From: an uncultured Bdellovibrionales bacterium
GTDB taxonomy: Bacteria; Patescibacteriota; Minisyncoccia; Moranbacterales; UBA9337
DNA: 64,000 nt
Reading direction: 5' to 3'
NCBI GenBank assembly: GCA_964605525.1
Contig: CAZSCV010000006.1
Coordinates: forward strand, 434 to 64,433
Part shown: positions 1 to 41,517 of the stretch, piece by piece
Layout: every line of letters begins with the position of its first letter
How positions within the stretch are numbered: position 1 is the first letter of the stretch
The notes under the pieces: generated by a model
Databases searched by the model: none
Seen by the model: only the letters and a program-made list of their open reading frames with translations
Told to the model about the DNA's origin: nothing
Position numbers and translations under genes: made by a program

Positions 1-511
1 CCTCTCCGAACGCAGCTTCTATACTGCGATTATCGTTGCCGTTAACCCTGAGATGGTTTGCTCCTCCTGAGGGCGATACGCCGCCAGTATAATAATCCGT
101 TGCTTCTCCCTCCCAATCCAGAGGAAATTTAGCGGCATATCTTATAAAAAGATCGTCACCGAAGGTCATTTCCCTTCCGAATACAGTATTCGGATCCACT
201 ACGAAGAAGGAGTCGGTATCGTAATCATTGAAGATATGTCCGTTCGGATCCATACTCCTGGCAGAAAAAGATCCACCGAACGGACTGTCTGAATCCGCCG
301 TAAACCTATCCTTTTTACCGGCAATATCCTGGATAAAACCTCTTTCCAGGTAATGGCTCCAGATGTTTTCATCCAGATTATCATCTTCCTCGAAATCTGC
401 GCATATTTTCATCCCATCCGCCATCGGATTCGGACAATCGGCTTTCGCGGAAAAAGAAAAAAAAGTTATCCAGAAAAATAGCGCGCAAAATATAGCTATC
501 TTATTTTTCAT
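1..511 (-). CDS. Secreted hypothetical protein, N-terminal part (runs off window start)
   Basis: Manual minus-strand translation from ATG at 511..509 gives MKNKIAIFCALFFWITFFSFSAKA... with a clear signal peptide and no stop before position 1. It is absent from the ORF track because it is incomplete. Confidence 0.5.
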   Translation of the reverse strand, partial: MKNKIAIFCALFFWITFFSFSAKADCPNPMADGMKICADFEEDDNLDENIWSHYLERGFIQDIAGKKDRFTADSDSPFGGSFSARSMDPNGHIFNDYDTDSFFVVDPNTVFGREMTFGDDLFIRYAAKFPLDWEGEATDYYTGGVSPSGGANHLRVNGNDNRSIEAAFGE

Positions 512-522
512 AAATTACAAAC

Positions 523-2283
523 CTACCGCACCCTCAAGACAACATATTTGGTGTCTTTGTTTCCAGCCTTGTCATAAGCCGTAAGGCGCATCGTATATAC
601 TCCGGAAGGGGCATTTGTTGGAATATTCATCGAACTGGATTTCGTTTCTTTTCCTTTTAACGGCCCGCTTATGAAAGAATATTTATAATGGTCGATTTTG
701 TTATTATCCTTAGCTTTCCACCAAAGTTTTTCCCCCTTTGATTTCGTCAGGAATGCAGGCAAATCATATACATCCGGATCCTCGGTATCAACCTTGACTT
801 CATATTTCAAAGATTCATCAATTTCATTTCCACTGGCATCATAAAATTTAAATTTAATTTCATAAGTATTACTTTTTTTGGTTTTTATGGAAATTTTCCA
901 CTCTCCATTTTTAACATCAGTATCATCATATTCATCACCGTCCACATAAGCAACCACTCTTCCGCCACTAAGACCATCGACATCTCCCTTAAACGAAAAC
1001 TTTTTATCTTTTGAATACATCTTTTTTGAAGACACGGCTTTCATTGATTCTTCGCTAGAAGATGACTTGAATTTCGGCTTATCAACATCAATATCAGTGT
1101 CATCTTGAACAACCTCAGCCTCTTCATCATCAACCACGACTTCATTAGAAACAGAAAAACTGATAGAAAAATCAGATGCATTGGCATTATCGGAACCATC
1201 TTGGCAACGGACATAATAATTATATGAGTTTCCATCAGTTAATCCACTAATGGTTTGGGAATGAGTTGTCCCCCCTGTAGTGGAAAAAATATTACTCATT
1301 GAAGTATACGCAACACTAGTAGAAGTTGAATATTTACAAGTTGCAGATTCATTAGTGGATACCCGAAGTGATGCGCTTGTGGTTCCTGCTGATAATATTC
1401 CATCAGATGACCCATTATCAGACACGACAGGAGCGGTAGTATCTGGAGTTTCGGAAACAGAAAAACTAATAGTAAAATCAGACAAATTAGCATTTCCGGA
1501 ACCATCCTGGCAACGCACATAATAATTATATGAACCCCCATCCGCTAGTCCTGTAACAGCTTGCGAATGAGTCGTTCCTCCGGTAGTGGAAAAAGTATTG
1601 GTCATCGAAGCATAAGCAACACCGGCAGAAGTTGAATATTTGCACGTTGCAGATTCATCAGTGGCAAGAGAAACTGTCGTTCCGGTAGTTCCAACCGCAA
1701 GAGATCCGGTAGGCAAACCATTTGAAAGGCTCGGAACGGTTGTATCCGGAGCTACCGGAAAAGAGATTTCCGCATCTGTTATTGTTCCAGAACTCAAAGC
1801 CACTCCTAATTCATCAGAAATCTCATTTACCCGCAAAGACAATTGAGTGGAACCGGAAGTAAATCCAGCCGTAGTTTTGGCGTAAATAGTAACCAAATGA
1901 ACATCACTTCCATTGGCATACCCAGAAGCTGTAATTCCGGCAAATCGCAGATGTCCATTTGCAATATCTGTGATATTGACAACCATCAAATAGCTAGAAG
2001 CATCCGCTCCTTTATCAACACCATCCGTTCCCTGCGTAGTATCAATTTCCACAAGATCGGGATCAAAATCGAAGTACATATTAAACGCGCTTAAATCTTT
2101 CCCTCCAGTATCCATATGAACCTCCATTTCAAAATTCGTATCACTTCCAACATCCTGGCTAACCGGAGTCAGCCAAATATCCCCTTCACTCGCCTTAACC
2201 CCCGTGGAAAATAAAATCAAACCTGCTGCTGCAAATATTGTCGCGACAGTAATCCTCCTTAAATTGTTCGTAATTCCCAACAT
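523..2283 (-). CDS. Secreted surface protein: signal peptide, cohesin-like domain, two repeated Ig-like modules, Lys/Asp-rich C-terminal region
   Basis: N-terminal signal peptide. The N-terminal domain has a cohesin-like signature (FEMEVHMDTGGKDLSAFNMYFDFDPDLVEIDT). Two near-identical modules (ATCKYSTS...YNYYVRCQDGSGNAN) follow, then a low-complexity C-terminus. Confidence 0.55.
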   Translation of the reverse strand: MLGITNNLRRITVATIFAAAGLILFSTGVKASEGDIWLTPVSQDVGSDTNFEMEVHMDTGGKDLSAFNMYFDFDPDLVEIDTTQGTDGVDKGADASSYLMVVNITDIANGHLRFAGITASGYANGSDVHLVTIYAKTTAGFTSGSTQLSLRVNEISDELGVALSSGTITDAEISFPVAPDTTVPSLSNGLPTGSLAVGTTGTTVSLATDESATCKYSTSAGVAYASMTNTFSTTGGTTHSQAVTGLADGGSYNYYVRCQDGSGNANLSDFTISFSVSETPDTTAPVVSDNGSSDGILSAGTTSASLRVSTNESATCKYSTSTSVAYTSMSNIFSTTGGTTHSQTISGLTDGNSYNYYVRCQDGSDNANASDFSISFSVSNEVVVDDEEAEVVQDDTDIDVDKPKFKSSSSEESMKAVSSKKMYSKDKKFSFKGDVDGLSGGRVVAYVDGDEYDDTDVKNGEWKISIKTKKSNTYEIKFKFYDASGNEIDESLKYEVKVDTEDPDVYDLPAFLTKSKGEKLWWKAKDNNKIDHYKYSFISGPLKGKETKSSSMNIPTNAPSGVYTMRLTAYDKAGNKDTKYVVLRVR

Positions 2284-2328
2284 ATTTTTTATTTTAAGAA
2301 ATAAGTTTTTATTTTAAATACATATTAT

Positions 2329-3567
2329 TTACAAACACCAATCAGTTCCGGACATATCCAATCCAATTGAATTTCTCAATATTAACATCGCGTCTGTTGT
2401 GTTGGTCGTATCATCACAATTCACATCCCCGGTATTAACAGAATCATACCAGCTAGTCAGACTCATATCCATTCCTACAGAACTTCTCAAAACTAATTGA
2501 GCGTCCGTAGTATTGCTCACTCCATTTTGATCAACATCGCTTCGTTCAGTAGCGACAATCGCGCTTTCAACAACAAAAGACGTAACCGGCAAAACATTGG
2601 AAACATTTCCGGCAGCATCAGTCACTGTAATTGTACAATCCGAATATGTTCCATCTGCCAAAGAACTGAATGTAGTGGTATTATTTCCCAAAACAGCTGT
2701 CGTATTAATACTACTGCACGATCCTCCAAAAGTAATAGTTCCTGCCTCTGTTGAACTGAAAACATAATTCGGGGTACTATCGCTGGTTGGAGTTGCAACC
2801 GGAGTAATTTCTTCCAAAACTGGAGCAGTTAAATCCAAAGGATTAACCGTGATGCTCGCGTCAAGGACGCTTTGCAAAATATCCGTTCCAGCACCATCAT
2901 CCGCAATCACATCACTATCGTCATAACTTCCAACTGAATTAAAACTTAGTGAGATACTCTTACTTTCAGCAGAACTTTGAAGCGCTTGGAAACTTACAGT
3001 AGCCACAACCCCGGAAGACAAATTAACTCCAGGAGTAGGTTTTGCAACTGTAATATCCAAAATTCCATTCACTGTATCATTACTGACTATCTCACAAGTG
3101 CGATCCGGGTCATCCACATCACTACAATCCAATCCATTATCAAAAACAGAATTGGTCAAATCCCATCCTGTCATCTGAAAAAAAAGCGGATCATATTCAA
3201 TTATGGCTCGCGCGACAACCGCATCACTGCCATTAGTATCAACAATGACATCCAAATCAAAAACATCCCCTTCTGTGACAGCAAGAGAGTTTTCTCCGCT
3301 CTGAGAATCCAGTAAAGAAAGAGAAACTTCGTCAGCGGCGCTGGACATATTTTGAATATCCAACGAAACAGTCAGAATAACACTAACAAAAGCTCCAGCA
3401 ATAAAAGCCAGCATAAAAACACCCTTCCATGTTTTTATTTGTGTTTTTTTGGTAAAAACATACGTTTTTCCAAGCCAGGAATATGTCTGCCCAGCCACTT
3501 CATCAATCTTTCTCTTCTTAGGAGAAGATAGAAATGGTCCATTTTCATCTTTGTTTTTTGTTTCCAT
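2329..3567 (-). CDS. Membrane-anchored protein with cohesin-like domain, Big-like domain and C-terminal type-I dockerin repeat pair
   Basis: N-terminal TM helix. The cohesin-like block is FDLDVIVDTNGSDAVVARAIIEYDPLFFQMTG and the Ig-like block is SLADGTYSDCTITVTDAAGNVS. The two C-terminal segments DVDQNGVSNTTDAQLVLR and DVNCDDTTNTTDAMLILR match the dockerin Ca-binding repeat D-x-N-x-D-G-x-V-N-x-x-D. Confidence 0.6.
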   Translation of the reverse strand: METKNKDENGPFLSSPKKRKIDEVAGQTYSWLGKTYVFTKKTQIKTWKGVFMLAFIAGAFVSVILTVSLDIQNMSSAADEVSLSLLDSQSGENSLAVTEGDVFDLDVIVDTNGSDAVVARAIIEYDPLFFQMTGWDLTNSVFDNGLDCSDVDDPDRTCEIVSNDTVNGILDITVAKPTPGVNLSSGVVATVSFQALQSSAESKSISLSFNSVGSYDDSDVIADDGAGTDILQSVLDASITVNPLDLTAPVLEEITPVATPTSDSTPNYVFSSTEAGTITFGGSCSSINTTAVLGNNTTTFSSLADGTYSDCTITVTDAAGNVSNVLPVTSFVVESAIVATERSDVDQNGVSNTTDAQLVLRSSVGMDMSLTSWYDSVNTGDVNCDDTTNTTDAMLILRNSIGLDMSGTDWCL

Positions 3568-3598: not shown

Positions 3599-4051
3599 CT
3601 ATATTTTTATCATTCGAATCAAATCGGAACGAGCAATGATTCCTTTTATCTTCCCTTCAAAATTAACCACAGGAATAATATGTAAATTCTTCTCTTTTAT
3701 TAAATCCAAAACCTTCTCGATGCTATCTTCCGGCAAAACGGTAATACATTCTTTTGTCATTATATCCGCCGCCGTTGAATTAACAATCTCTTTTATTTTA
3801 TCTTTTTCTTCGCTGTCTATTTTGCCTGAAAATTTTGTTTTCTTGATAAAATTTATATATGATGGCAAATGCAGATTGAAAGAATCCTTGATGAAAAAAT
3901 CTGTTTCAGTGATTATTCCAACCAAAACCCCGCCCTCAACTACCGGAACACCGTGGATTTTTTTTTCCGTCAGAATAGATGCCACTCTGTCAATTCTTTC
4001 TTCTGGAAAAACAGAAACCACTTCCGCCGTCATCACATCTCTTACAAGCAT
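3599..4051 (-). CDS. CBS domain pair protein
   Basis: Two CBS-like modules (VMT..V..V.....V...I...G.PVV; IARSDLIR). Confidence 0.75.
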   Translation of the reverse strand: MLVRDVMTAEVVSVFPEERIDRVASILTEKKIHGVPVVEGGVLVGIITETDFFIKDSFNLHLPSYINFIKKTKFSGKIDSEEKDKIKEIVNSTAADIMTKECITVLPEDSIEKVLDLIKEKNLHIIPVVNFEGKIKGIIARSDLIRMIKI

Positions 4052-6030: not shown

Positions 6031-7101
6031 TTAAAAATCTCTCAGACCGGCATATATTTTACTCGGATCATTGATATTATATTTCAACGCGCTTATACTT
6101 TTTTTAGTATCCAGCTGAAAAACCGACCATTGCGTCCCGCCATCATTGGTTTTATATATCGCTTGCGCAGCTGCGTACACAATCTCATTGGAATTATTCG
6201 GATTAACGGCAATAGCATAAATGGGAAATTTCTTTGAACTCCCGATAACATTCACTTCGGCGATACTATCTCCGAAATTGGAAGATTTGAACATTCCTTC
6301 CGACGTTCCGATATATGCGACTCCGGTATTACTTGGATCCGCAACAATAGATTTTACCGAGGAAGATGGAAAATTAACAATATCTTTTTTATCTTTATTT
6401 TTGTTTTTTCCCAAAAAAGCGAAACTAATTCCATTGTCTTTTGTTATCAAAGCTCCATCACCCAAAACAAGAAAATACACCGCATTCTCATTTTTCTCAT
6501 CAATAACTATTTTAGTTATCGGACTCGTTTCCGCATGAAAATCCTTCCAAGTATCCCCTCCGTCATAAGTTTTGATAATCGTCCCCTTACTTGTTCCGGC
6601 ATACACAATTTGAGGATCAACTTTACTAATCGCCAAAGAAATTATCAGTGTTCCGTCTGCCGGTTCGCTGTATATCTCCCGCCAGCTCGCCCCCCGGTCG
6701 TCTGTACGAAAAATTTTCCCACGTTTTCCCAAAACACCAGTTGCATAAATTGTTTCTGGTTGCTGGTGATTGATGGCAACTCCATATACTTTGGTTGCCA
6801 AAAACTCTGTATTTTTTGTCCATTTTTCACCGCCATCATTAGAAGAAAAAATTCCATTATCCGCACTTCCCAAATACACAGCCTCCGAATTAATCGGATC
6901 AACTGCCATCGTCAAAATATCAACACCAGAAATATTCGTTTTTTCATCATAATAATTTTTTGCTTCCCAATTATTTCCACCGTCAATATTTACCAAGAAA
7001 CCTCCCGTTGAAGTTTTTTTCACTCCGGACAAATCAAATGAACATCCGGAAAAAACAAAAACGACGGTTATTAACAATATAATTTTTATATAATTTTTCA
7101 T
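6031..7101 (-). CDS. Lipoprotein with BNR/Asp-box repeats (Ycf48/sialidase-like beta-propeller)
   Basis: Lipobox MKNYIKIILLITVVFVFSGCS. Five S/T-x-D-x-G-x-x-W repeats (DGGNNW, NDGGEKW, DDRGASW, YDGGDTW, NDGGTQW). Confidence 0.6.
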   Translation of the reverse strand: MKNYIKIILLITVVFVFSGCSFDLSGVKKTSTGGFLVNIDGGNNWEAKNYYDEKTNISGVDILTMAVDPINSEAVYLGSADNGIFSSNDGGEKWTKNTEFLATKVYGVAINHQQPETIYATGVLGKRGKIFRTDDRGASWREIYSEPADGTLIISLAISKVDPQIVYAGTSKGTIIKTYDGGDTWKDFHAETSPITKIVIDEKNENAVYFLVLGDGALITKDNGISFAFLGKNKNKDKKDIVNFPSSSVKSIVADPSNTGVAYIGTSEGMFKSSNFGDSIAEVNVIGSSKKFPIYAIAVNPNNSNEIVYAAAQAIYKTNDGGTQWSVFQLDTKKSISALKYNINDPSKIYAGLRDF

Positions 7102-7222
7102 ATTTTTATTCTAGCATATTTCAAGAAAAAACAAAAAACAATCCTCGTGGATTGCTTCATATATCGTGGTGCGTCGTGGGGGAATCCCAGTCCGCTGGTC
7201 CGCCCGTGGTGGAGAACCTTTG

Positions 7223-7295
7223 TGCGTCGTGGGGGAATCGAACCCTCGACCGTTGGCTTAAAAGGCCACTGCTCTACCGACTGAGCTAACGACGC
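7223..7295 (-). tRNA. tRNA-Lys (anticodon UUU)
   Basis: Reverse complement GCGTCGTTAGCTCAGTCGGTAGAGCAGTGGCCTTTTAAGCCAACGGTCGAGGGTTCGATTCCCCCACGACGCA folds as a cloverleaf with anticodon loop CTTTTAA and T-loop GGTTCGATTCC. No CCA is encoded. Confidence 0.7.
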
Positions 7296-7467
7296 ATATA
7301 CTATTTTAAATTAACTCTGACAAATTCCATCTTTTTGCGGGCTACGCTACCGAGTGCTTGTCCGCCTGTGGAGGAAGCTAACGACGCATATATTTCAAAT
7401 TTTCTGCATTTCATTGGTCAACTTAACCAACCTAACTATTATACTAATTCAAACGTATAAGTCAATA

Positions 7468-7983
7468 CTACTTCGATCTCTTGCTTAAGAAAAGTAAAAA
7501 TACCAATGGCAGAACCATCCAAAATATCTGCGCGTACAGCGAAGCAAAATAGCTCAGTGAACTTTCGGAAATATACTGCAAAACAATCTTTTTCGGCAAA
7601 TGAGAAATAATAATACTAAAAACCAGTCCCATCTCCAAAAAACTCATCACGAAAAGCCGCCAAAAAAAACCGCCTGGAACCGTGTTGGAAATATGAATAT
7701 CAAAAAGATAATCACCGATTATAGTTAAAAAAATAACTGCCGCCAAGAAAAAAACTGCCGGCAAAATACCGGAACTGCTCAGCCATTTTGCGGGAATAAC
7801 CCCCAAAAGCGCCACTGCAATGTAAATATTAATAAGCACATTCACCAAGCGAAACCTTCCAATATACATTCCCAATCCCACACTCACCACTGACAAAATC
7901 AAAAACATCGAAATATCTCCTGAAATTTTTTCCGGCAAACCCAAATCCACAAACAATCCTTGCATTCCCATATTTTTCAACAA
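7468..7983 (-). CDS. Hypothetical polytopic membrane protein
   Basis: ORF with several hydrophobic helices and no recognisable motif. Confidence 0.4.
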   Translation of the reverse strand: MLKNMGMQGLFVDLGLPEKISGDISMFLILSVVSVGLGMYIGRFRLVNVLINIYIAVALLGVIPAKWLSSSGILPAVFFLAAVIFLTIIGDYLFDIHISNTVPGGFFWRLFVMSFLEMGLVFSIIISHLPKKIVLQYISESSLSYFASLYAQIFWMVLPLVFLLFLSKRSK

Positions 7984-7989
7984 ATCAAA

Positions 7990-9207
7990 TTAATTCCTTC
8001 TCTCTACTAGATTATACAAAATATTTTCAAATTGGGAAATATATTTGCCTTTGCTGTATTTTTCCAGAGATTCTCTTTGAATCTTATTTTCATCAAAAAC
8101 ACATTTGCCGCCAGCGATTTTATTCAAAATATCAATCATTTCTTTTTGGCTATTTACAATAAATCCATTTCTTCCATTCTGAATTATTTCCCCATAAGCT
8201 CCGGCATTAAAGCCCACAAAAGGTTTTCCCTGTGAAATGGATTCCAGCGCCACTAGCCCAAAAGTTTCCGGCAATTTTGATCCGGAAACAACCACCTCCG
8301 CGTTTCTGATGTATTTTTTCAGCATTATCTGGTTGAGAAATCCCAAACGGACAATTTTTTCGTTTTCCGGAAAAACAAAACCGCCCTCAATCTCCCCCGC
8401 CAAATACAATTTCATTCCAAAAACTTCCCCGAAAACGGAAATCAAATTTTCAACACCCTTATTTCGGGAAATTCTCCCGGCATAAATCGCATATTTTTCC
8501 CGCGGGCTGTTCTCCTTTTCTTCTCCCGCGCAACCTTTCTCCTTTCCTGCTATAAAATGAGGGATTATTTTTATTTTATCCGCGCTGATTCCCCGCTTAA
8601 TCAAAATATTTCTCGCAAACTCGCTCGGACAAATATACAAATCAATATTTTTTCGATATGTCCCAAAAAAATCATGCCAATACGCTTCCAGCATTGCCAC
8701 CAAACTTTGGAAATAAGAATTTTTGAAACATTTATCTAAGAAACATTGGTAATATTTTCCATTCAGGCAACGGTCATAAATTTTTCCGTTGTAATACAAA
8801 TCATAATTCGGACTTACCAATTTGTAATCATGTACCGTCATCACAATCGGAATGCCACGCTTTTTTATTTCAAACAAAATCATCGGGGAAAGCTGGTGGT
8901 AAACATTATGAATATGGACGATATCGGGATTAAAATCATCCAGCAACTTATTGATTTTTCGCTTCGCCTCCAAAGAAAAAAACATCCGGAAAATTCCTTT
9001 GATTTTTTGCGCCCAAGAATAATCTGCCGTATATCCGACCAAAGAAACAAAATATTTTTCCCATTTGCTTTTTTTGTTTTTCGGATGCTTCATCGAAAAA
9101 ACCGCCACCTCGTGACCGACACTTTCAAGCAAAAAAACAACATCCAAAAAATGCTTGTCCGCTCCCCCTTTGGGAAAATAGAATTTATTTATTTCTAAAA
9201 TTTTCAT
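7990..9207 (-). CDS. Glycosyltransferase family 4
   Basis: GT4 C-terminal signature (PETFGLVALESISQGKPFVG...). The likely true start is MKILEINKFYFPKGGAD at 9207. The upstream in-frame extension to 9345 lies in a repeat and is probably not coding. Confidence 0.75.
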   Translation of the reverse strand: MKILEINKFYFPKGGADKHFLDVVFLLESVGHEVAVFSMKHPKNKKSKWEKYFVSLVGYTADYSWAQKIKGIFRMFFSLEAKRKINKLLDDFNPDIVHIHNVYHQLSPMILFEIKKRGIPIVMTVHDYKLVSPNYDLYYNGKIYDRCLNGKYYQCFLDKCFKNSYFQSLVAMLEAYWHDFFGTYRKNIDLYICPSEFARNILIKRGISADKIKIIPHFIAGKEKGCAGEEKENSPREKYAIYAGRISRNKGVENLISVFGEVFGMKLYLAGEIEGGFVFPENEKIVRLGFLNQIMLKKYIRNAEVVVSGSKLPETFGLVALESISQGKPFVGFNAGAYGEIIQNGRNGFIVNSQKEMIDILNKIAGGKCVFDENKIQRESLEKYSKGKYISQFENILYNLVERRN

Positions 9208-9238
9208 AATAATTTGCTCGATTGAATAATGAAGCTCT

Positions 9239-9347
9239 CGGTTTTCCGGAAAAATGTTTTTTTCGCAGCTGTCCGTGTCCCTCGAAAGGACCGGAGAAAA
9301 AAATATTTTTCCGGAAAACCATCTGGAGACTACCTGAATGCGCAAGT
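9239..9347. repeat. 108-nt intergenic repeat, copy A (copy B at 18490..18598)
   Basis: About 90% identity to 18490..18598 (cggttttc[c/t]g[g]aaaaatgtttttttcgcagctgtccg[t/c]gtccctcgaaaggaccggagaaaaaaata...acgcaagt). It contains a short hairpin GTCC-N7-GGAC. Confidence 0.6.
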
Positions 9348-9401
9348 CTCAAAAGAAAGAATAACATATTCAAAAGGGACAATTGGAAAAAGAAAAATTT
9401 A

Positions 9402-10862
9402 TTATTTTTTGGAATAACCCACAAAAAATCTTATTAGCCCCAAAATAATCCAGAAAAATATTCCCAACAAATTGGTTTCTAAATATGGTTGAAACAAAAA
9501 AACAATCAAATAATTTACTGCTAATGCAATTAATACAAAATCAATCCACTCTTTTTCTTTTTTTTCAACCAAACTTTTCAAAGTCAAAAACACAAACGCA
9601 ATCAACGGTAAAAACAAAATCAATCCACCTTGCAAAAGAATCGCCAAAAGTGAATTATGCACGTTGCGCACTTCAACCAAATCTTGATAATCCCCCAGCT
9701 CCAGTGAAAGCTTTTTCCCCAAACCAATTCCAACCAGCGGATTTTCTCTTATTTTCTCCCCCGCCTCCAACCACAACATTCCCCGCCAAAAAAAACTTTC
9801 ATCTTCCGAAAAACTGGAAAAAGAAGCTGTTCGCTTTCCCAAAACCTCAACGGAATAATCAATTCTCTGATCAATTTTTGAATTGGGAATAATCGCGGAA
9901 AGATAAAAAACAAAAACAATAACCGTCGCCGCACCAAAAATAATTTTCCCGGCATAATTTTTCAAAAATAGCCTTTTTTCTTTTGGCAAGAAAAAAATCG
10001 CAACAAAAGCAGAAAGAGCTAGGCCAATCCAAAGATGGCGCATCATCGATCCAATGATTCCAAAAATCCAAATCGGAAGCAACCAAAAATATTTGCGATA
10101 TTTTTTTGCCAAAGAAAAAACCAAAAATATTCCCAGCGTCAAAACCGCCATTGTCAAATAGAAAGCGTGCGGAAATGCCAACAAGCGAACCCCCTCGGTG
10201 GAAAGCGGAGTAAACTCCGACCACAAACCCTGCCCGGAAATAATTCCATAAATAATAAAAAATATAATACCGATTGCGCCTGCCAAAGCGAATTTCAAAA
10301 ATCTAACCAAATGTTCTTTTTTATTTAGCAAAATAATAACAGCAAAATACAATAGCGCGTAAAACCCATAATTCTTCCAAGCGGAAAAAGCCAAATCTTT
10401 GTCAGAATTCGGATCAAAAAAACTGGCTAGGAAATATATTGAAACCAAAAATATAAAAACAATCAAGAGCCAATCGACCGCTCTTATCCCCCTCTTCCTT
10501 TGGGAGAGGGTTGGGGTGAGGGTTCGTATGGAATGCGTATTTTTTAAATAATTAACCGCTATTCCCAAAATGACAGCCAAAAAAATCACGTCCAGCGGAT
10601 AAAATTTAATTTCACTACGCGACAGTACAATCGGCGCCAAAGTGAAAAATCTTTCAAAGACAAAAGTCAAAAACACAATCGCAAAAAGTCCACTTCGCGG
10701 ATGCGCCGCGACAATCGCAAAACTTGTCAGCATCAAAACCAAATACAAAGGCAAAGAAAATCCAAACGCAAAATTGGAAAAAATAAACAAAGAAACAGCC
10801 ACGATCACAAAAATTGCACTCACCGTTTCTCTATTCATTTTTTGCAACCAGACGTAAGACAT
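9402..10862 (-). CDS. O-antigen ligase / Wzy-like polytopic membrane protein
   Basis: 486 aa with about 10-12 TM helices and a periplasmic loop, a typical WaaL/Wzy architecture. The family call comes from topology only. Confidence 0.45.
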   Translation of the reverse strand: MSYVWLQKMNRETVSAIFVIVAVSLFIFSNFAFGFSLPLYLVLMLTSFAIVAAHPRSGLFAIVFLTFVFERFFTLAPIVLSRSEIKFYPLDVIFLAVILGIAVNYLKNTHSIRTLTPTLSQRKRGIRAVDWLLIVFIFLVSIYFLASFFDPNSDKDLAFSAWKNYGFYALLYFAVIILLNKKEHLVRFLKFALAGAIGIIFFIIYGIISGQGLWSEFTPLSTEGVRLLAFPHAFYLTMAVLTLGIFLVFSLAKKYRKYFWLLPIWIFGIIGSMMRHLWIGLALSAFVAIFFLPKEKRLFLKNYAGKIIFGAATVIVFVFYLSAIIPNSKIDQRIDYSVEVLGKRTASFSSFSEDESFFWRGMLWLEAGEKIRENPLVGIGLGKKLSLELGDYQDLVEVRNVHNSLLAILLQGGLILFLPLIAFVFLTLKSLVEKKEKEWIDFVLIALAVNYLIVFLFQPYLETNLLGIFFWIILGLIRFFVGYSKK

Positions 10863-10982
10863 AGGAATTAGGAATTAGAAATTTAATACACTGTTATTCT
10901 ACCAATAATTCAATAATAAAACCATCAAATACTCTCAAAATAACTCAATATAATAGTATATCACAAATCAGAAAAAAAATCA

Positions 10983-11012
10983 AGCCCTGATGTGAAATTT
11001 CACACCAGGGCT
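10983..11012 (-). terminator. Intrinsic terminator hairpin
   Basis: Near-perfect 15-bp palindrome agccctgatgtgaaa/tttcacaccagggct, followed on the minus strand by a T-run (A8 on plus at 10971..10978). Confidence 0.5.
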
Positions 11013-11040
11013 CGCCATCGGCAGCTGCCGAAGAAACATG

Positions 11041-11418
11041 TTATTTTTTGCGGACAATAATACATCCGCGAGAATCCGAGCATTCCGGTCTCAAACCCTC
11101 AAACTTGGAATACGGGTCGACAAGAAAATACCATGTCCCCTCCTTATCCTTCCAGGTATAGAGGAATCCCTCATCCGGATTTGCCGGGTCCAGCTTGAAT
11201 GAGTGGACAGGACCGAGGTCTGTGTTCCTCGTTCCCTTCCCGTCGCGGTGATACACCACGACATTCAAGAGCTCAGTCCCTGCCGGCATGGGCGGAATTG
11301 TCACCTCATCCCCCACGCAACTCGGCACGGCATTCACCCACTTGGGAGCCGCCTGCGCGATCCCTATCAGACAAAAAAACACTGCCACTGCCACGAAAAA
11401 ACCGATTGTCTTTTTCAT
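11041..11418 (-). CDS. Small secreted protein (GC-rich island)
   Basis: Likely start MKKTIGFFVAVAVFFCLIGIAQA (signal peptide). Local GC is about 50%, against about 35% in flanking DNA. Confidence 0.45.
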   Translation of the reverse strand: MKKTIGFFVAVAVFFCLIGIAQAAPKWVNAVPSCVGDEVTIPPMPAGTELLNVVVYHRDGKGTRNTDLGPVHSFKLDPANPDEGFLYTWKDKEGTWYFLVDPYSKFEGLRPECSDSRGCIIVRKK

Positions 11419-11594
11419 GATGCTTCCTCCTGTTGTTTGCCGACATATTATAGTCGGTTTTTTTGTTGAAAAAATTCTTTTCCCACAACCCAATGTTGCG
11501 GAAAAGTTCGTTCTTTCAAAATAAAAATAGAGATAAGTGGATCCTTCAATGAAGGACCCACCCATAAATAATTCTGCTCAATAATCAAACAGAA

Positions 11595-13154
11595 TCAATA
11601 TTGCAATAACTGATGATCGGCCGGTTTGACTTCTTCCGTCCTGATCACAGAATATTTTTTACGAACCTCGTGTTTCAATTCGAAACGAACGAAGGCTCCG
11701 TACGAATATCCACCAGCAGCACCTGCAACTGCCGATGCCAACGTATAATCAAAACTTGGACCAAACATCAACCACTCGCGATATCTGGCCTCCGCATTCA
11801 GATTCAGTCCCCAGCGATCTTCGTGAGGAGCAAATCCAATCTGCGCGCCAAGTCTCCCCGCCCAGTCCTCGGAAAAATACTTGTGAATTTTCGCTCCGAT
11901 AACAAATCCAGCGCGATCACTCACTTCATCTCCACTCCAACTGGAATTGATGGACCCGCTTACGTCAAACCATCCCTCCGCGTACAACACCGCCATAAGT
12001 TCAGGCGCAAATTGACGGAGATATTCGGCGTAATACCCCAAGAGAAAATGATCTTCGTCTTTGTGATAACCTGACGAAGAATTTTCCCCGTGCAAATGTT
12101 CCCAAAGCGTGCGGAACATAAACTGCACTTGATGGGGATATCCATTATCAGCAAGCCCGGTCCAAATAAAACCGATTTCTGGACCAATTCCCGCACTGTT
12201 CCACTCATAGCCGGCATCTGTTTCACCAAAGTCGCCCTTAGCAAAAACACCGACCTTCGGCACTAATGTGCCCCCAAAGATGTTGATGTTTCCATTCTCA
12301 CATCTTTGAAGAGTCAGGAGATACTGCGCGTACCACCAAAGGCCATGCACATCCCTCTCCTTATTCTGCCACGCGCCCATACCAGCATCTACTTCATGCT
12401 CGCACTGGACGCACTCCTTTTCTTCCACGACTTCTCTGAAAATCGGCGGGAGTTCCGGCGGAGTTTCCGGAATCACTTCCGGCACCACTGGAGCAGGCGG
12501 AATTTCCACTTTTTTAACCGGAACGGGAGGCTTCTCCCAAATGAGCCAGTTGGCGCACTCAGGTTTTGCATAAACGGATCCCACATAGCTTCCGTTTACT
12601 ATAATACCAAATCTTCCCACTTTCGCCTTTTCCGGCGAAAGCTCGGCTCGGTACCATTTCACCTTATTTTTTCCCGACACCATCTTAATGACGGCGCCGG
12701 AAGGCAAAATATCCATTCCCTCGCTGGCAAAATTCAGCCGGGCATCTTTTGGAATATCAAATCCCAAAAGTTTCAAACCTTCGACGAAAGTTCCCCTCCA
12801 AGGATCATCCCCGACCTCATCGTCGGAGTAAACTGCAGGATTTTCCTTAGTGCCAGTTACCACCTTTTTCGTGATAACAGAAAAAGTCTTTTTCGCCCTT
12901 TTGGTTATTTTGGGCGTAATCAACTTTTGTTGATTAGAAATTTTTTCAGGAATGATCACATTCTGTCCGACACGAATCGTGTACGGGGCAGAAATCTTAT
13001 TTTCCTCAGCGATGTTATGCCAGTCAACTCCCAGTTTAACGCCGATAGTTGAAAGACACTCACCCTTTGCGACCGTATGTGTCTGATCTGCCCAAGCGCT
13101 TGTTGCACACAAGGCAATCAGAAGCATTACCCATAAACCAACAATCCGCTTCAT
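11595..13154 (-). CDS. Secreted LysM-domain protein with Pro-rich linker and large C-terminal domain (GC-rich island)
   Basis: Signal peptide, then a LysM motif (HTVAKGECLSTIGVKLGVDWHNIAEENKI...IRVGQNVIIP), a PVPVKKVEIPPAPVVPEVIPETPPELPP linker, and a Trp/Gly/aromatic-rich C-terminal domain. Confidence 0.6.
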   Translation of the reverse strand: MKRIVGLWVMLLIALCATSAWADQTHTVAKGECLSTIGVKLGVDWHNIAEENKISAPYTIRVGQNVIIPEKISNQQKLITPKITKRAKKTFSVITKKVVTGTKENPAVYSDDEVGDDPWRGTFVEGLKLLGFDIPKDARLNFASEGMDILPSGAVIKMVSGKNKVKWYRAELSPEKAKVGRFGIIVNGSYVGSVYAKPECANWLIWEKPPVPVKKVEIPPAPVVPEVIPETPPELPPIFREVVEEKECVQCEHEVDAGMGAWQNKERDVHGLWWYAQYLLTLQRCENGNINIFGGTLVPKVGVFAKGDFGETDAGYEWNSAGIGPEIGFIWTGLADNGYPHQVQFMFRTLWEHLHGENSSSGYHKDEDHFLLGYYAEYLRQFAPELMAVLYAEGWFDVSGSINSSWSGDEVSDRAGFVIGAKIHKYFSEDWAGRLGAQIGFAPHEDRWGLNLNAEARYREWLMFGPSFDYTLASAVAGAAGGYSYGAFVRFELKHEVRKKYSVIRTEEVKPADHQLLQY

Positions 13155-13156
13155 AA

Positions 13157-14098
13157 CTACCTCCTTGGCGCGCTCAGCGCCTCTGTGAGTTGTTTCGCAT
13201 TGAATTGATTTCTTTTATAAACTTCATTTTGAGCAAGGATCAAAAGATATTCCATAGTGAACGCCATATTGCGACGATTCGGAATCTCAGAATTATAATC
13301 CCAACCGGTACTCGGGGCATTACCTGCTCCAATCAAATCCATCGCCACATTAATGGAATTGCAAATCGCAAATCCGGTCGGATCCGGGATAGGATTGATA
13401 CGGAACGTCCCCGTCCCAATAAGCTTCTGAAAATAGCTGTATTGCGGATTAATTCCGCGGATTTTCGCTACTTCATTCACTCCACAGGGAGACAAAAGAT
13501 ATCCTTCTGGATATTGAATTTGATTCCAAGTCTTAATGACATATTGAAACTTCTCAATCCGGGAAAGCGAACTCAGATTAAAAATGTTGCCATTTTCATC
13601 CGTGTTCACTTCTCTTATTTTTTCTTTCCGATACGCGGGATCAGCAAGAAACTTTCCCCGCTCTACGGGCAATTCTCTTCCGTATGGGCTGTAAATATAA
13701 TCCACAGCTGAAGAAAGAATCGCCGTCTGTCCGGAAGAAATTTGACCATCGATAACTTCCGTTCCGAAATACTGTCCCGAAGGATGCATTCCGGAAAAAA
13801 TCACTTGACCAAATCTCTCAGAATTATCATCCAAAATTGTCCACGTATTCCAACGCAGACGCCCTGGATAATATTCCCCAAACAGCTTAAGTGGAAAAAC
13901 TACCATAAAAGTAGAAATATCCCCTTTACTAATTGCCAGAGTCGGCTCCAACCCCAAAGACTGATGAGGCTGAACCAAAAGATTAACTTGATTTTCAGGC
14001 AAAGAAGCATTCTCCACCCGAAGCTCTTTTCCAGCGCACCCCGAAAGAAGCGCTACGACAAAAAATATAACAGTAAGACTTCTCAGAAAATTTTTCAT
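13157..14098 (-). CDS. Lipoprotein, hypothetical (GC-rich island)
   Basis: Likely start MKNFLRSLTVIFFVVALLSGCAG (lipobox). High-GC composition. Confidence 0.5.
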   Translation of the reverse strand: MKNFLRSLTVIFFVVALLSGCAGKELRVENASLPENQVNLLVQPHQSLGLEPTLAISKGDISTFMVVFPLKLFGEYYPGRLRWNTWTILDDNSERFGQVIFSGMHPSGQYFGTEVIDGQISSGQTAILSSAVDYIYSPYGRELPVERGKFLADPAYRKEKIREVNTDENGNIFNLSSLSRIEKFQYVIKTWNQIQYPEGYLLSPCGVNEVAKIRGINPQYSYFQKLIGTGTFRINPIPDPTGFAICNSINVAMDLIGAGNAPSTGWDYNSEIPNRRNMAFTMEYLLILAQNEVYKRNQFNAKQLTEALSAPRR

Positions 14099-14162
14099 CA
14101 CGCACCTCCCGATGCAGTTTTTTGATTTGGAATAATATTGGGAATTAACTTCCCATATATAT

Positions 14163-14202
14163 CTCATCATTACCATATTACGAAATATGGTAATGTTTAT
14201 AT
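14163..14202. promoter_or_regulatory. Palindromic operator-like site ATTACCATAT-TACGAA-ATATGGTAAT
   Basis: Perfect 10-bp inverted repeat about 70 nt upstream of the island lipoprotein gene. It shares the half-site ATTACCATAT with the repeats flanking the TrpR-like gene at 55.45 kb and 56.03 kb. Confidence 0.4.
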
Positions 14203-21103: not shown

Positions 21104-21174
21104 TTGGGGATGAGGGATTCGAACCCCCGATGCAAGGACCAGAACCTTGTGCCTTACCGCTTGGCTAATCCCCA
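21104..21174 (-). tRNA. tRNA-Gln (anticodon CUG)
   Basis: Reverse complement TGGGGATTAGCCAAGCGGTAAGGCACAAGGTTCTGGTCCTTGCATCGGGGGTTCGAATCCCTCATCCCCAA. It has the U1-A72 pair typical of bacterial tRNA-Gln, anticodon stem CAAGG/CCTTG and loop TTCTGGT. Confidence 0.75.
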
Positions 21175-26569: not shown

Positions 26570-26642
26570 GCCACCTTAGCTCAGTTGGCAGAGCAATGCA
26601 CTCGTAACGCATAGGTCCGGAGTTCGATTCTCCGAGGTGGCT
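26570..26642 (+). tRNA. tRNA-Thr (anticodon CGU)
   Basis: GCCACCTTAGCTCAGTTGGCAGAGCAATGCACTCGTAACGCATAGGTCCGGAGTTCGATTCTCCGAGGTGGCT, with anticodon loop CTCGTAA and T-loop GTTCGATTC. Confidence 0.8.
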
Positions 26643-41103: not shown

Positions 41104-41517
41104 TACCAAGGCAAATCTATAAGCCGGATTCTGTACTCCGACGCGAGGTCGGAGTGGCAATCATTTATCTAGCTCCGGCGTTACCGTCGGAGTCAAGCGG
41201 CACCCCCCGGCAAAATGCCGAGGTACGGCCTTGCATTCAAGTAAGGATTTAGCCGTTTCACCTCTTATATTACTATAAGAGCTTATCCCCCGTGAGGGGG
41301 ATATTTTATTTCTTTCGAAATAAAACGTCTCTGCTCGCACCTCTTGGGTTTCCCCATGACGGGCGTTACCTCCGACGATTTTTCAATGTCGGAGCTCCGC
41401 ACCCTTTAGAGCGTCGGAGCCGCTACCCTGCTCCCTGGTACAAAACCAGGGGAATGTCCGGACTTTCCTCTCCGCCGATGCAAAGCATCAGCAGAGCAAT
41501 TGCCCAATTTGCCTTGA
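41104..41517 (-). ncRNA. rnpB: RNase P RNA (bacterial type A)
   Basis: The minus strand carries GAGGAAAGUCCGG (P4 5' strand, plus 41458..41470), ACAGAAUCCGGCUUA (P4 3' strand, plus 41120..41134), AGGGUGCGGAGC, and a P1 pairing CAAGGCAAAU/AUUUGCCUUG. The region is about 410 nt and GC-rich. Confidence 0.8.

What the first reader, a model, noticed from the sequence alone, without database searches (positions are those of the whole stretch)
523..3567. Adjacent cohesin-like and dockerin-bearing surface proteins: a candidate cell-surface assembly system
Two tandem secreted proteins each carry a domain matching the cohesin pattern (hydrophobic strand ... YDP..LE). The membrane-anchored one ends in two canonical type-I dockerin Ca-binding repeats (DVDQNGVSNTTDAQLVLR and DVNCDDTTNTTDAMLILR). 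Both also carry Ig-like modules, duplicated in the first protein. A dockerin on a membrane-anchored protein beside a multi-module cohesin protein suggests a self-assembling surface scaffold, which would be unusual in a reduced, non-cellulolytic CPR-like genome. A third secreted protein lies directly downstream at 1..511.
Basis: partly seen in the sequence, partly recalled or inferred. Interest (0 to 1): 0.7.

Follow-up and report, generated by a model that had tools for sequence, protein, structure and literature searches.

The report
Cohesin–dockerin surface assembly operon in CPR bacterium
A tiny-genome candidate-phyla-radiation (Moranbacteria-like) bacterium carries a compact gene cluster for a cellulosome-style "plug-and-socket" system, with a membrane anchor, an extension piece and plug-tagged secreted proteins, that most likely assembles proteins on its cell surface for a purpose other than cellulose breakdown.

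Summary
Window 523-2283(-) (A, 586 aa, signal peptide) and 2329-3567(-) (B, 412 aa, one N-terminal membrane helix) each carry a cohesin-fold domain. Pfam misses both domains in the window proteins. AlphaFold models place them among solved cohesins only: A has pLDDT 95.7 and TM 0.78, and B's best match is E 1e-9. B ends in a two-repeat dockerin, supported by orthologues and by a profile search of solved structures (E 1.6e-6). Its fold was not resolved, and the "type I" label is untested.

New evidence strengthens the interpretation:
- An identical-strain contig shows that the truncated third gene, and a fourth, end in a Cys-knot plus a single-loop dockerin.
- Relatives carry up to four such dockerin-tagged cargo genes, with beta-helix or lyase-like domains.
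- In related CPR genomes the anchor is one chain: membrane helix, cohesin, stalk, then A's C-terminal tip. It lacks exactly B's dockerin and A's cohesin.

So B and A look like a split stalk re-joined by dockerin B binding cohesin A. B's own cohesin would then receive the cargo. No binding has been shown. This is a new variant of the known non-cellulosomal cohesin–dockerin kind, and I found no description of it in CPR.

The parts
2329..3567 (-). Gene B: membrane-anchored scaffold, 412 aa. Order: cytoplasmic tail, membrane helix, cohesin B, Big_13, dockerin B.
   Evidence: ORF. 100% identical to P0001 of Parcubacteria group bacterium Athens0714_25. Conserved in 9 orthologues.
3361..3423 (-). Single membrane helix of B (residues 49-69), preceded by a Lys/Arg-rich, conserved cytoplasmic N-terminus (residues 1-48, nt 3424-3567).
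   Evidence: Kyte-Doolittle maximum 2.46 at residues 49-67, the only hydrophobic segment. The motif RKID..YSW..KTWKG is conserved across the whole anchor family.
2830..3336 (-). Cohesin B: cohesin-fold domain of B (residues 78-246), directly after the membrane helix. Contains the invariant Cys148/Cys158.
   Evidence: AlphaFold model. Foldseek top hits are all cohesins, E 9e-10. The profile hits only cohesins in the PDB, best SdbA 2bm3 at E 0.003. Pfam Cohesin in 3 of 9 orthologues.
2563..2820 (-). Big_13 Ig-like spacer of B (about residues 250-335). Contains the invariant Cys284/Cys311.
   Evidence: Pfam Big_13, E 5.3e-5, residues 261-333. Confident beta-sandwich in the model.
2332..2547 (-). 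Dockerin B: two-repeat dockerin (residues 341-412). Repeat 1 is nt 2449-2538 and repeat 2 is nt 2338-2427. Cys384 and Cys411 are invariant.
   Evidence: Pfam Dockerin_1: 19.7 bits here, 8 of 8 complete orthologues, best 7.3e-8. Profile vs PDB: 1ohz_B E 1.6e-6, with dockerins ranked above calmodulins. The two repeats are 17/30 identical. Fold not resolved.
523..2283 (-). Gene A: secreted extension piece, 586 aa. Order: signal peptide, cohesin A, two FN3-like repeats, linker, Big_13, PKD-like tip.
   Evidence: ORF. Orthologues. Always the gene after a dockerin-B-bearing anchor wherever the contig continues.
2191..2283 (-). Signal peptide of A (residues 1-31, cleavage VKA|SEGD).
   Evidence: The only hydrophobic segment in A. 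A31, E33, G34 and D35 are invariant in orthologues.
1750..2190 (-). Cohesin A: cohesin-fold domain of A (residues 32-178).
   Evidence: Model pLDDT 95.7, pTM 0.90. Top 50 PDB matches are all cohesins, best 6kgd_A at E 4.4e-9, TM 0.78. hhalign to cohesin B: 79% probability, E 1.6e-5.
1144..1749 (-). Two tandem FN3-like modules of A (residues 179-280 and 281-380), each containing ..ESATCKYSTS...YYVRCQDGS.
   Evidence: 68/99 identical to each other. Pfam Pur_ac_phosph_N, DUF7800 and fn3. PDB profile hit to the chitinase A1 FN3 domain 1k85.
526..1143 (-). Distal 'tip' of A: acidic and Lys-rich linker (residues 381-424), Big_13 (425-500) and a PKD/DUF4625-like domain (501-586).
   Evidence: Pfam Big_13 31.4 bits, DUF4625, K319L-like PKD. 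The same module ends the single-chain anchors L012, L015, L019 and P0020-22.
1..511 (-). 5' part of cargo gene 3. The window holds residues 1-170 of 367. Residues 1-24 are a signal peptide. The C-terminal Cys knot and single-loop dockerin lie beyond the window end.
   Evidence: Translation. Contig L004 is 511/511 nt identical over this part and gives the full protein, ending ...CTDNIQNQDETGIDCGGVCDAC...NFISAITNWLQIGNETSDVNSDGVVNTRDLGVMMSGWEN. A fourth gene has the same C-terminus.
3599..4051 (-). CBS-pair protein. It is the conserved gene immediately upstream of the anchor in every related locus. Whether it belongs to the system is unknown.
   Evidence: Synteny in L001, L003, L004, L007 and L008.

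Best explanation
The locus encodes a small, non-cellulosomal cohesin-dockerin system that displays proteins on the cell surface of a Moranbacteria-like CPR bacterium.

Shown:
- B is held in the membrane by one N-terminal helix. Outside the cell it carries, in order, a cohesin, an Ig-like spacer and a two-repeat calcium-loop dockerin.
- A is secreted, has no anchor of its own, and starts with a second, divergent cohesin followed by FN3, Ig and PKD-like modules.
- The next genes are secreted proteins ending in a Cys knot plus a second kind of dockerin. This kind has one calcium loop, and its first repeat is reduced to a helix.

Inferred mechanism:
- Dockerin B plugs into cohesin A. This hangs A on the end of B and rebuilds a long stalk that related bacteria make as a single polypeptide.
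- The membrane-proximal cohesin B is the socket for the single-loop dockerins of the cargo proteins.
- The cargo domains look like polysaccharide-lyase jelly rolls here and like beta-helix proteins in relatives.
- The likely purpose is to hold glycan-acting or adhesive proteins at the surface of a cell that depends on other organisms. Cellulose breakdown is not indicated.

Confidence is about 0.65 that this is a cohesin-dockerin assembly anchored by B. It is about 0.45 for the specific pairing of dockerin B with cohesin A and of cargo dockerin with cohesin B.
For: Domains.
- Cohesin folds are confirmed for A and B.
- The cohesin B profile hits only cohesins in the PDB. The two cohesins are remote homologues of each other.
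- Dockerin B: Pfam in 8 of 8 complete orthologues; PDB dockerins at E 1.6e-6.
- Cargo dockerin: its profile hits PDB dockerins, 6kg9_A at E 2.9e-7; Pfam Dockerin_1 is weak but recurrent in 7 proteins.

Topology and operon.
- Membrane helix in B and signal peptide in A.
- Gaps between genes are 31, 45 and 11 nt, on the same strand, with no terminator-like site between genes on that strand.

Cargo.
- The identical-strain contig L004 shows genes 3 and 4 with Cys knot plus dockerin.
- L001 has three such cargo genes and L011 has four.
- Cohesin-B-type genes neighbour dockerin-tagged genes in L016, L017, L026 and L027, which lack dockerin B and cohesin A.

Split-protein argument.
- P0020-22, L012, L015 and L019 are single chains of membrane helix, cohesin B, stalk and A's C-terminal tip.
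- P0020 residues 16-328 align to B residues 19-335 at 51% identity. P0020 residues 333-642 align to A residues 283-586. This omits exactly dockerin B and the signal peptide, cohesin A and first FN3 of A.
- L003 and L007/L008 have the same flanking genes but carry the two-gene and one-gene forms respectively.
- Wherever dockerin B occurs and the contig continues, the next gene starts with cohesin A: L001/L002, L003, L004-006, L009-011, L032 and L033.

Different specificities are plausible. Dockerin B has TT at loop positions 10-11 and LR at positions 17-18 in both repeats. The cargo dockerin has TR and MS at those positions (read from the sequences; the role of these positions is from my own knowledge of type I complexes such as 1OHZ).
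Against:
- AlphaFold left dockerin B unfolded (pLDDT <40).
- Neither window protein passes Pfam's own thresholds for Cohesin or Dockerin_1.
- The fused-form loci L007/L008 still encode a protein with cohesin A, FN3 and a cargo-type dockerin, but no dockerin B is visible on the contig. Cohesin A may therefore have another partner, possibly the cargo dockerin.
- More distant relatives (L021, L024, L025, L028) carry a cohesin-B-like domain and a cargo-like dockerin in one chain. In classical scaffoldins this usually means the two are not partners.
- The cargo function rests on weak hits only: Polysacc_lyase E 7.7e-4 in 2 of 10 relatives; Beta_helix and DUF5123 below cut-off.
- The families are small, about 23 species loci for cohesin B, so the co-occurrence statistics are thin and phylogenetically correlated.
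Confidence: 0.62

Rival explanations
1. The modules are the same but the wiring is different. Dockerin B binds cohesin B of a neighbouring B molecule, giving membrane-bound multimers or a lattice, as with the self-recognising Amy4 of the Ruminococcus bromii amylosome. Cohesin A of the secreted protein A is then the socket for the single-loop cargo dockerins, so A acts as a free or wall-associated enzyme-collecting scaffold.
For: - Proteins with a cohesin and a dockerin that recognise each other are documented (PMC4611034, read).
- In L007/L008 a protein with cohesin A and a cargo-type dockerin persists without any dockerin B in the locus. This fits cohesin A binding the cargo dockerin.
Against: - The single-chain anchors lose dockerin B and cohesin A together and keep cohesin B. 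Under this wiring cohesin B would be orphaned in those genomes.
- Many loci have cohesin B plus dockerin-tagged neighbours but no cohesin A or dockerin B.
- A has no anchoring module, so cargo bound to it would not be retained at the cell.
Confidence: 0.17
2. The cohesin-fold and dockerin-like modules do not bind each other. They are structural beta-sandwich spacers and calcium-binding modules in ordinary surface adhesins or envelope proteins. They may bind host glycans or proteins directly, as has been suggested for non-cellulosomal dockerins in other ultra-small bacteria. On this view the gene adjacency only reflects co-expression of surface proteins.
For: - Non-cellulosomal dockerins have been interpreted as adhesins (PMC10066038).
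- A dockerin-domain protein is essential in a cultivated Patescibacterium, with proposed glycan targeting (PMC10633639).
- No interaction has been demonstrated here.
- The window proteins score below Pfam thresholds.
Against: - Two cohesin classes and two dockerin classes are concentrated in one operon and occur nowhere else in the 64 kb window.
- A shared dockerin tag sits on otherwise unrelated secreted proteins next to cohesin genes in many genomes.
- Dockerin B and cohesin A are lost together in the covalently fused forms.
- These are the signatures of a tag-and-socket system.
Confidence: 0.18
3. A chance resemblance or annotation artefact: low-complexity Asp/Asn/Thr-rich sequence that mimics dockerin loops, and a generic beta-sandwich mistaken for cohesin.
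For: - Pfam finds no Cohesin match and only a sub-threshold Dockerin_1 match in the window proteins.
- Single-sequence PDB searches are insignificant.
Against: - The fold search returns only cohesins among the top 50 hits, with TM up to 0.81.
- Family profiles reach dockerins and cohesins specifically.
- The modules are conserved across orthologues with invariant calcium-ligand positions.
Confidence: 0.02

Closest known systems
Bacterial cellulosome (e.g. Clostridium/Acetivibrio thermocellum CipA with the SdbA/OlpB anchoring scaffoldins and dockerin-tagged enzymes)
   Same: - The same two module families: the cohesin beta-sandwich (Foldseek matches to CipA, SdbA, ScaA-C and OlpA/C cohesins) and the EF-hand-like dockerin (best PDB match is the Xyn10B dockerin 1ohz_B).
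- A hierarchical layout: a cell-bound anchor, an intermediate piece joined by one cohesin-dockerin pair, and cargo tagged with a second dockerin class.
- The genes are clustered.
   Different: - No cellulose-binding module and no recognisable glycoside hydrolase.
- One cohesin per protein instead of arrays.
- Anchoring is by an N-terminal membrane helix rather than SLH domains or sortase.
- The dockerin sits on the cell-bound protein and the cohesin on the secreted one, the reverse of the usual anchor-to-scaffoldin link.
- The cargo dockerin has a single calcium loop and is preceded by a Cys knot.
- The host is a reduced-genome CPR bacterium.
Ruminococcus bromii amylosome (PMC4611034)
   Same: - A cohesin-dockerin system put to a non-cellulolytic use.
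- Few, single-cohesin scaffold proteins.
- One protein (Amy4) carries both a cohesin and a dockerin.
- Dockerins occur on proteins of diverse or unknown function, including membrane proteins.
   Different: - The amylosome interactions are shown experimentally; these are not.
- Amylosome cargo are GH13 amylases; here the cargo are lyase-like or beta-helix-like proteins of unknown activity.
- Sca2 is sortase-anchored.
- No split-stalk arrangement is described there.
Non-cellulosomal cohesin- and dockerin-like modules surveyed across the three domains (Peer et al. 2009, FEMS Microbiol Lett 291:1; cited in PMC10066038), including the Archaeoglobus fulgidus cohesin 2xdh
   Same: - Isolated cohesin and dockerin modules in organisms with no cellulosome, often in the same protein, with unknown partners.
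- 2xdh is among the best structural matches to cohesin A (TM 0.75/0.80).
   Different: - Here the modules form a coherent operon: an anchor, an adaptor and several cargo genes, with an evolutionary fusion/fission record that suggests which modules pair.
- The survey paper itself could not be read, so the comparison with it rests on my own knowledge.
Dockerin-domain surface proteins noted in Patescibacteria and Omnitrophota (SEML1_0315 in Southlakia epibionticum, PMC10633639; giant ORFs with nine dockerins, PMC10066038)
   Same: Ultra-small, host-dependent bacteria with dockerin-bearing envelope proteins that are suspected of host-glycan binding or adhesion.
   Different: Those reports mention dockerins alone. 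They describe no partner cohesins, no anchor and no cargo set. No homology between those proteins and A or B was tested here.

Membership tests
Cohesin domain (Pfam PF00963) | Significant match to the family profile at the curated threshold | tested here: inconclusive
   The window proteins give no Cohesin hit at E<=1. Orthologues do: 3 of 9 for B, best 7.3e-8; 2 of 9 for A, best 1.3e-4; P0244 at 27.5 bits, above the 24.1 cut-off. The cohesin B profile hits only cohesins in the PDB, E 0.003. The cohesin A profile has no PDB sequence hit.
Cohesin domain (Pfam PF00963) | Nine-stranded flattened beta-sandwich (jelly-roll) fold | tested here: met
   The A model has pLDDT 95.7 and about 10 strands. 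Its top 50 Foldseek PDB hits are all cohesins, TM 0.66-0.81. The B model's cohesin region has block-mean pLDDT of about 64-93 apart from a low-confidence stretch at model residues 131-160. Its top hits are all cohesins, E 9e-10, target-normalised TM up to 0.71.
Cohesin domain (Pfam PF00963) | Binds a dockerin through the 8-3-6-5 sheet face | not testable with these tools
Model coordinates could not be inspected.
Dockerin (Pfam PF00404 Dockerin_1) | Duplicated segment of about 22 residues, each with a 12-residue EF-hand-like calcium loop (Asp/Asn at positions 1, 3, 5, 9, 12) followed by a helix | tested here: met
   B residues 344-373 read DVDQNGVSNTTD+AQLVLR... and residues 381-410 read DVNCDDTTNTTD+AMLILR.... 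The repeats are 17/30 identical. The ligand positions are invariant in 7 orthologues.
Dockerin (Pfam PF00404 Dockerin_1) | Significant match to the family profile | tested here: met
   The window protein alone scores 19.7 bits against a cut-off of 22.9. All 8 complete orthologues match, best 7.3e-8. The module profile vs PDB gives 1ohz_B at 1.6e-6 and 2ccl_B at 3.1e-6. 5nrm_B aligns across both repeats, and dockerins rank above calmodulin.
Dockerin (Pfam PF00404 Dockerin_1) | Two- or three-helix calcium-stabilised fold | tested here: inconclusive
   AlphaFold2 with a 14-sequence alignment and no calcium left B residues 337-412 at pLDDT 29-38.
Type I (as opposed to type II/III) cohesin-dockerin pair | Phylogenetic or specificity class. 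Type II has an X-module next to the dockerin and helix/flap insertions in the cohesin. | tested here: inconclusive
No X-module-like domain was recognised; Big_13 precedes the dockerin. By sequence, cohesin B is nearest to the type II SdbA cohesin. By fold, both cohesins match type I, II and III alike.
Cellulosome sensu stricto | Scaffoldin with multiple cohesins and a cellulose-binding module, plus dockerin-bearing plant-cell-wall glycoside hydrolases | tested here: not met
   There is one cohesin per protein. No CBM or GH family appears in A, B or the cargo. It works like a cellulosome in assembly logic but is not one.
Bacterial lipoprotein (the name given to B in NCBI) | Signal peptide ending in a lipobox with an invariant Cys | tested here: not met
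   The first Cys of B is residue 148. The hydrophobic segment at residues 49-69 follows a 48-residue charged tail.

The most novel reading that the evidence does not exclude
CPR (Moranbacteria-group) bacteria possess a lineage-specific modular surface machine. It is a membrane-rooted stalk that evolution has repeatedly fused and split, with a dedicated orthogonal cohesin-dockerin pair acting as the 'snap-fastener' between the halves. A second pair loads interchangeable Cys-knot/dockerin-tagged glycan-attacking or adhesive proteins next to the membrane. On this reading the machine is the organism's tool for attaching to, or feeding on, the envelope of a host cell. That would be a cohesin-dockerin 'attack/attachment-some' central to the episymbiotic lifestyle.
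Probability: 0.25. Interest if true: 0.78.

Novelty: new variant of a known kind. Interest (0 to 1): 0.58.

Why it matters
CPR/Patescibacteria make up a large share of bacterial diversity. Most are thought to live attached to other cells, and how they build their interaction surface is largely unknown.

This locus offers a complete, compact parts list that is easy to test:
- two cohesins, two dockerin classes, a membrane anchor and swappable cargo;
- four small modules that can be expressed in E. coli, with pairing read out in a day by the standard cohesin-dockerin ELISA or native-gel assays.

The fused and split forms in relatives are a natural experiment on how non-covalent connectors replace covalent linkage in surface proteins.

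If the pairs are orthogonal and high-affinity, they would also be new, very small connector parts for designer protein scaffolds. If the cargo are envelope-glycan lyases, the system would link CPR surface architecture to host exploitation.

Tried and rejected
- Pfam and NCBIfam on the window proteins found no Cohesin and only a sub-threshold Dockerin_1. Taken alone this would have refuted the finding. Orthologue and fold evidence overturned it.
- Single-sequence PDB searches gave only noise, such as thermonuclease and nitrogenase.
- The cohesin A profile against PDB sequences found nothing, so the fold search was needed.
- BLASTP of A against B gave only a 47-residue match at E 0.01. Profile-profile comparison was needed to link the two cohesins.
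- The AlphaFold model of B did not fold the dockerin and gave no sign of intramolecular docking.
- The AFDB fold library was not available.
- Cargo domain identity: the representative-library search found only 10 relatives. Their profile has no PDB sequence match and only weak Polysacc_lyase hits. The cargo function stays tentative.
- The metagenome scan for dockerin-B-type modules found only 4 loci. Two belong to the same Moranbacteria lineage and two are unrelated generic dockerins, so it added little power to the co-occurrence test.
- Literature searches for cohesin or dockerin together with CPR, Parcubacteria or Patescibacteria found no description of such a system, only passing mentions. 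Peer et al. 2009 is not held.
- I rejected the NCBI name 'lipoprotein' for B.
- I rejected an intrinsic terminator between the genes. The only minus-strand candidate lies inside gene B.

Full report
**Source and layout**

The window is almost the whole of a 64.5-kb contig of 'Parcubacteria group bacterium Athens0714_25'. Protein B is 100% identical to P0001 from that MAG. The closest relatives are Candidatus Moranbacteria/Moraniibacteriota MAGs.

Nearly all genes lie on the minus strand. The region of interest holds three consecutive minus-strand genes:
- B = 2329..3567 (412 aa)
- A = 523..2283 (586 aa)
- a third gene starting at 511 and running off the window

The gaps between genes are 31, 45 and 11 nt. 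No terminator-like site on that strand falls between them.

**Checking the observation**

Topology. B has a 48-residue Lys/Arg-rich N-terminus and then its only hydrophobic segment at residues 49-69. It is therefore a single-pass, N-in membrane protein. It is not a lipoprotein as named in NCBI, because its first Cys is residue 148. A has a classical signal peptide with cleavage at VKA|SEGD and no other hydrophobic segment.

Profile searches on the window proteins. Pfam finds no Cohesin match in either protein, even at E<=1. Dockerin_1 scores only 19.7 bits in B, against a cut-off of 22.9. NCBIfam and single-sequence PDB searches add nothing.

Orthologues and structure reverse that.
- Nine B orthologues (54-85% identical) conserve the whole architecture.
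- Scanned individually, all 8 complete ones hit Dockerin_1 (best 7.3e-8), and 3 hit Cohesin (best 7.3e-8).
- A profile of B's extracellular N-terminal domain hits only cohesins among solved structures (SdbA 2bm3, E 0.003).
- A profile of B's C-terminal module hits dockerins first (1ohz_B at 1.6e-6, 2ccl_B, 4uyp_B). 5nrm_B aligns across both repeats, and calmodulin EF-hands rank below.
- AlphaFold2 on A residues 31-178 with 25 homologues gave pLDDT 95.7 and pTM 0.90. All top 50 Foldseek PDB matches are cohesins of types I, II and III and of non-cellulosomal origin. The best is E 4.4e-9, TM 0.78/0.79, rmsd 2.7 Å.
- The model of B residues 78-412 is confident for the cohesin-like and Big_13 parts. 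Its top matches are again all cohesins (E 9e-10).
- The two cohesins are remote homologues of each other (hhalign 79% probability, E 1.6e-5).
- The dockerin part of B was not folded by AlphaFold (pLDDT 29-38). Its identification rests on sequence alone.

The dockerin sequence itself. The two 30-residue repeats are DVDQNGVSNTTDAQLVLRSSVGMDMSLTSW and DVNCDDTTNTTDAMLILRNSIGLDMSGTDW. They are 17/30 identical. Asp/Asn at loop positions 1, 3, 5, 9 and 12 are invariant in orthologues.

- B has one Big_13 domain.
- A has two FN3-like repeats that are 69% identical (68/99), then a charged linker, Big_13 and a PKD/DUF4625-like end.
- The duplicated modules are therefore FN3-like rather than classical Ig.

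Local HMMs built from these modules find them nowhere else in the 64 kb.

**What lies downstream**

Contig L004, from another assembly, is identical to the window over the shared part of gene 3 (511/511 nt). It continues further.

Gene 3 is a 367-aa secreted protein made of:
- a domain of about 270 residues and unknown family;
- a 22-residue Cys knot, CTDNIQNQDETGIDCGGVCDAC;
- the C-terminal module NFISAITNWLQIGNETSDVNSDGVVNTRDLGVMMSGWEN.

Gene 4 has a different N-terminal domain but the same Cys knot and C-terminus.

This C-terminal module aligns to positions 20-51 of Pfam Dockerin_1 (E 0.005). Its profile hits solved dockerins (6kg9_A at 2.9e-7, 4fl4_A at 1.1e-5). When aligned with two-repeat dockerins, it looks like a dockerin whose first calcium loop is lost while the first helix (F..I..W) is kept.

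In the Moranbacteria relative L001, the genes after B and A are three paralogous ~655-aa secreted proteins. Each has an IPT/TIG-like N-terminus, a beta-helix-like core (weak Beta_helix/DUF5123), and the same Cys knot and single-loop dockerin. L011 has four such genes.

The DNA of this shared tail is about 90% identical between neighbouring genes. That probably explains why the NCBI contig breaks inside gene 3.

The gene 3 domain belongs to a tiny family of 10 representatives among 1.84 billion proteins. It has no PDB sequence match. Two of ten relatives give weak Polysacc_lyase hits (PF14099, 7.7e-4). The cargo function is tentative.

**Distribution and the fusion/fission record**

A scan of one genome per species with the cohesin B alignment found 23 loci. 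Most carry names from CPR groups: Moraniibacteriota, Parcubacteria, Patescibacteria, Falkowbacteria, Portnoybacteria and Saccharibacteria. Some MAGs are labelled Bdellovibrionales, Acidobacteria or simply 'bacterium'. I suspect, but did not test, that the Bdellovibrionales labels are mis-assignments.

Mapping my HMMs onto all loci shows three things.

1. The anchor family shares the conserved cytoplasmic tail, membrane helix and cohesin B. Everything after that varies.
2. Genes with the single-loop dockerin flank cohesin B genes in many loci that have neither dockerin B nor cohesin A (L016, L017, L026, L027).
3. Dockerin B occurs only in a narrow clade: L001/002, L003, L004-006, L009-011, L013, L032 and L033. 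Wherever the contig continues, the next gene begins with signal peptide plus cohesin A.

Several anchors that lack dockerin B run on covalently into the same C-terminal 'tip' that ends protein A. These are P0020-22, L012, L015 and L019.
- P0020 residues 16-328 match B residues 19-335 at 51% identity.
- P0020 residues ~333-642 match A residues 283-586.
- What is missing is exactly dockerin B together with the signal peptide, cohesin A and first FN3 of A.

L003 (two-gene form) and L007/L008 (one-gene form) share the same flanking genes: a cohesin A-FN3-dockerin protein and a CBS protein on one side, and UvrA on the other.

The simplest reading is that B and A are the two halves of one stalk protein, held together non-covalently by dockerin B binding cohesin A. 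By elimination, and from point 2 above, cohesin B would be the socket for the cargo dockerin.

The two dockerin classes also differ at the positions that contact cohesin in type I complexes. Those are loop positions 10-11 and 17-18. Dockerin B has TT and LR in both repeats. The cargo dockerin has TR and MS. The residues are read from the sequences. The role of those positions comes from my own knowledge of structures such as 1OHZ.

**Weak points**

- No interaction has been measured or modelled.
- The fused-form loci still encode a protein with cohesin A, FN3 and a cargo-type dockerin, without a visible dockerin B. Cohesin A may therefore bind something else, perhaps the cargo dockerin.
- More distant relatives combine a cohesin-B-like domain and a cargo-like dockerin in one chain (L021, L024, L025, L028). 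This fits either self-association, as shown for Amy4 of the R. bromii amylosome (PMC4611034), or non-cognate modules.
- I therefore give about 0.62 to 'cohesin-dockerin surface assembly anchored by B', and less (~0.45) to the specific wiring.
- The rival wirings are B self-association with A as the cargo scaffold, and no mutual binding at all. They are listed with their tests.

**Comparison with what is known**

In assembly logic this works like a cellulosome or amylosome: an anchor, an adaptor, tagged cargo and two specificities.

It is not a cellulosome:
- there are no arrays of cohesins, no CBM and no glycoside hydrolases;
- anchoring is by an N-terminal membrane helix instead of SLH domains or sortase;
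- the dockerin is on the cell-bound partner;
- the cargo tag is a single-loop dockerin preceded by a Cys knot.

Non-cellulosomal cohesins and dockerins are known across all three domains (Peer et al. 2009, cited in PMC10066038; the A. fulgidus cohesin 2xdh is a good structural match). Dockerin-bearing envelope proteins have been mentioned for Patescibacteria and Omnitrophota. Full-text searches found no description of a cohesin-dockerin operon in CPR.

The 'type I' label is not established. By sequence cohesin B is nearest a type II cohesin, and by fold both cohesins match all types.

**Verdict**

This is a new variant of a known kind. Interest is moderate to fairly high, because the system sits in a poorly understood lineage and is directly testable with four small recombinant modules.

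Noticed in passing
window 2329-3567 (-): NCBI names this protein 'lipoprotein'. It has no lipobox: the first Cys is residue 148, and the hydrophobic segment at residues 49-69 follows a 48-residue charged tail. The name looks wrong.
   Followed up: yes
L004:8675-8760 and L004:9690-9760; L001 cargo genes (ends at 13049, 15045, 17035): A 22-residue Cys knot, C[ST]DNIQNQDETGIDCGGVC[DE]AC, always precedes the single-loop dockerin of the cargo proteins. It has no Pfam family. One relative gives a weak 'putative metal-binding motif' hit. Its role (calcium or metal site, or a rigid linker) is unknown.
   Followed up: partly
window 2332-2427 (-), B residues 384 and 411: Two Cys are invariant in all dockerin B orthologues. 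One is at position 4 of the second calcium loop and the other is the penultimate residue (..DWCL). They may form a disulfide 'clasp' that stabilises the dockerin. Each of B's other domains also has one invariant Cys pair (148/158 and 284/311).
   Followed up: no
L015, L016, L017, L019 (anchor genes); P0111: Relatives of the anchor carry 2-4 copies of a repeat of about 45 residues, C.SF.Y.DW..C.P..TQ.RT....P..C.GG.P.L...C, between the cohesin and the tip. I met no family name for it in these searches.
   Followed up: no
window 1-511 and the contig end: The window ends inside cargo gene 3, just before its C-terminal module. L005 and L006, two other assemblies of the same strain, also end inside gene 3. 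That module is about 90% identical in DNA between adjacent cargo genes. A repeat-induced assembly break is likely, so cargo genes are probably under-counted in MAGs.
   Followed up: partly
window 3599-4051 (-): A CBS-pair protein sits immediately upstream of the anchor gene in every related locus examined, including the fused-form loci where the other neighbours differ. The link between a cytoplasmic CBS protein and a surface system is unexplained.
   Followed up: no
L003:276-1256 (P0153), L007:8495-9457, L008:6739-7746 (P0161), L013:4602-5273: A family of short secreted proteins made of cohesin A, usually one FN3, and a single-loop dockerin is encoded just upstream of the CBS gene in some relatives, but not in this window. 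They could be adaptors or could polymerise head to tail.
   Followed up: partly
window 6031-14176 (-): The upstream neighbours are cell-envelope genes: a BNR/Sortilin-like beta-propeller (6031-7101), a GT4 glycosyltransferase (7990-9345), a Wzy_C O-antigen-ligase-like protein (9402-10862) and a LysM protein (11595-13154). This stretch has somewhat higher GC, 0.42-0.45. The BNR, GT4 and Wzy_C genes are syntenic in L001.
   Followed up: partly
window 41104-41515 (-); 7223-7295 (-), 21104-21174 (-), 26570-26642 (+): Bacterial class A RNase P RNA (113.7 bits) and three tRNA genes. Ordinary housekeeping content.
   Followed up: no
P0244, P0247, P0249 (relatives of cohesin A): Some short proteins combine a cohesin-A-type domain with DUF5648 (E 2.5e-24). 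This is another uncharacterised partner architecture for this cohesin class.
   Followed up: no
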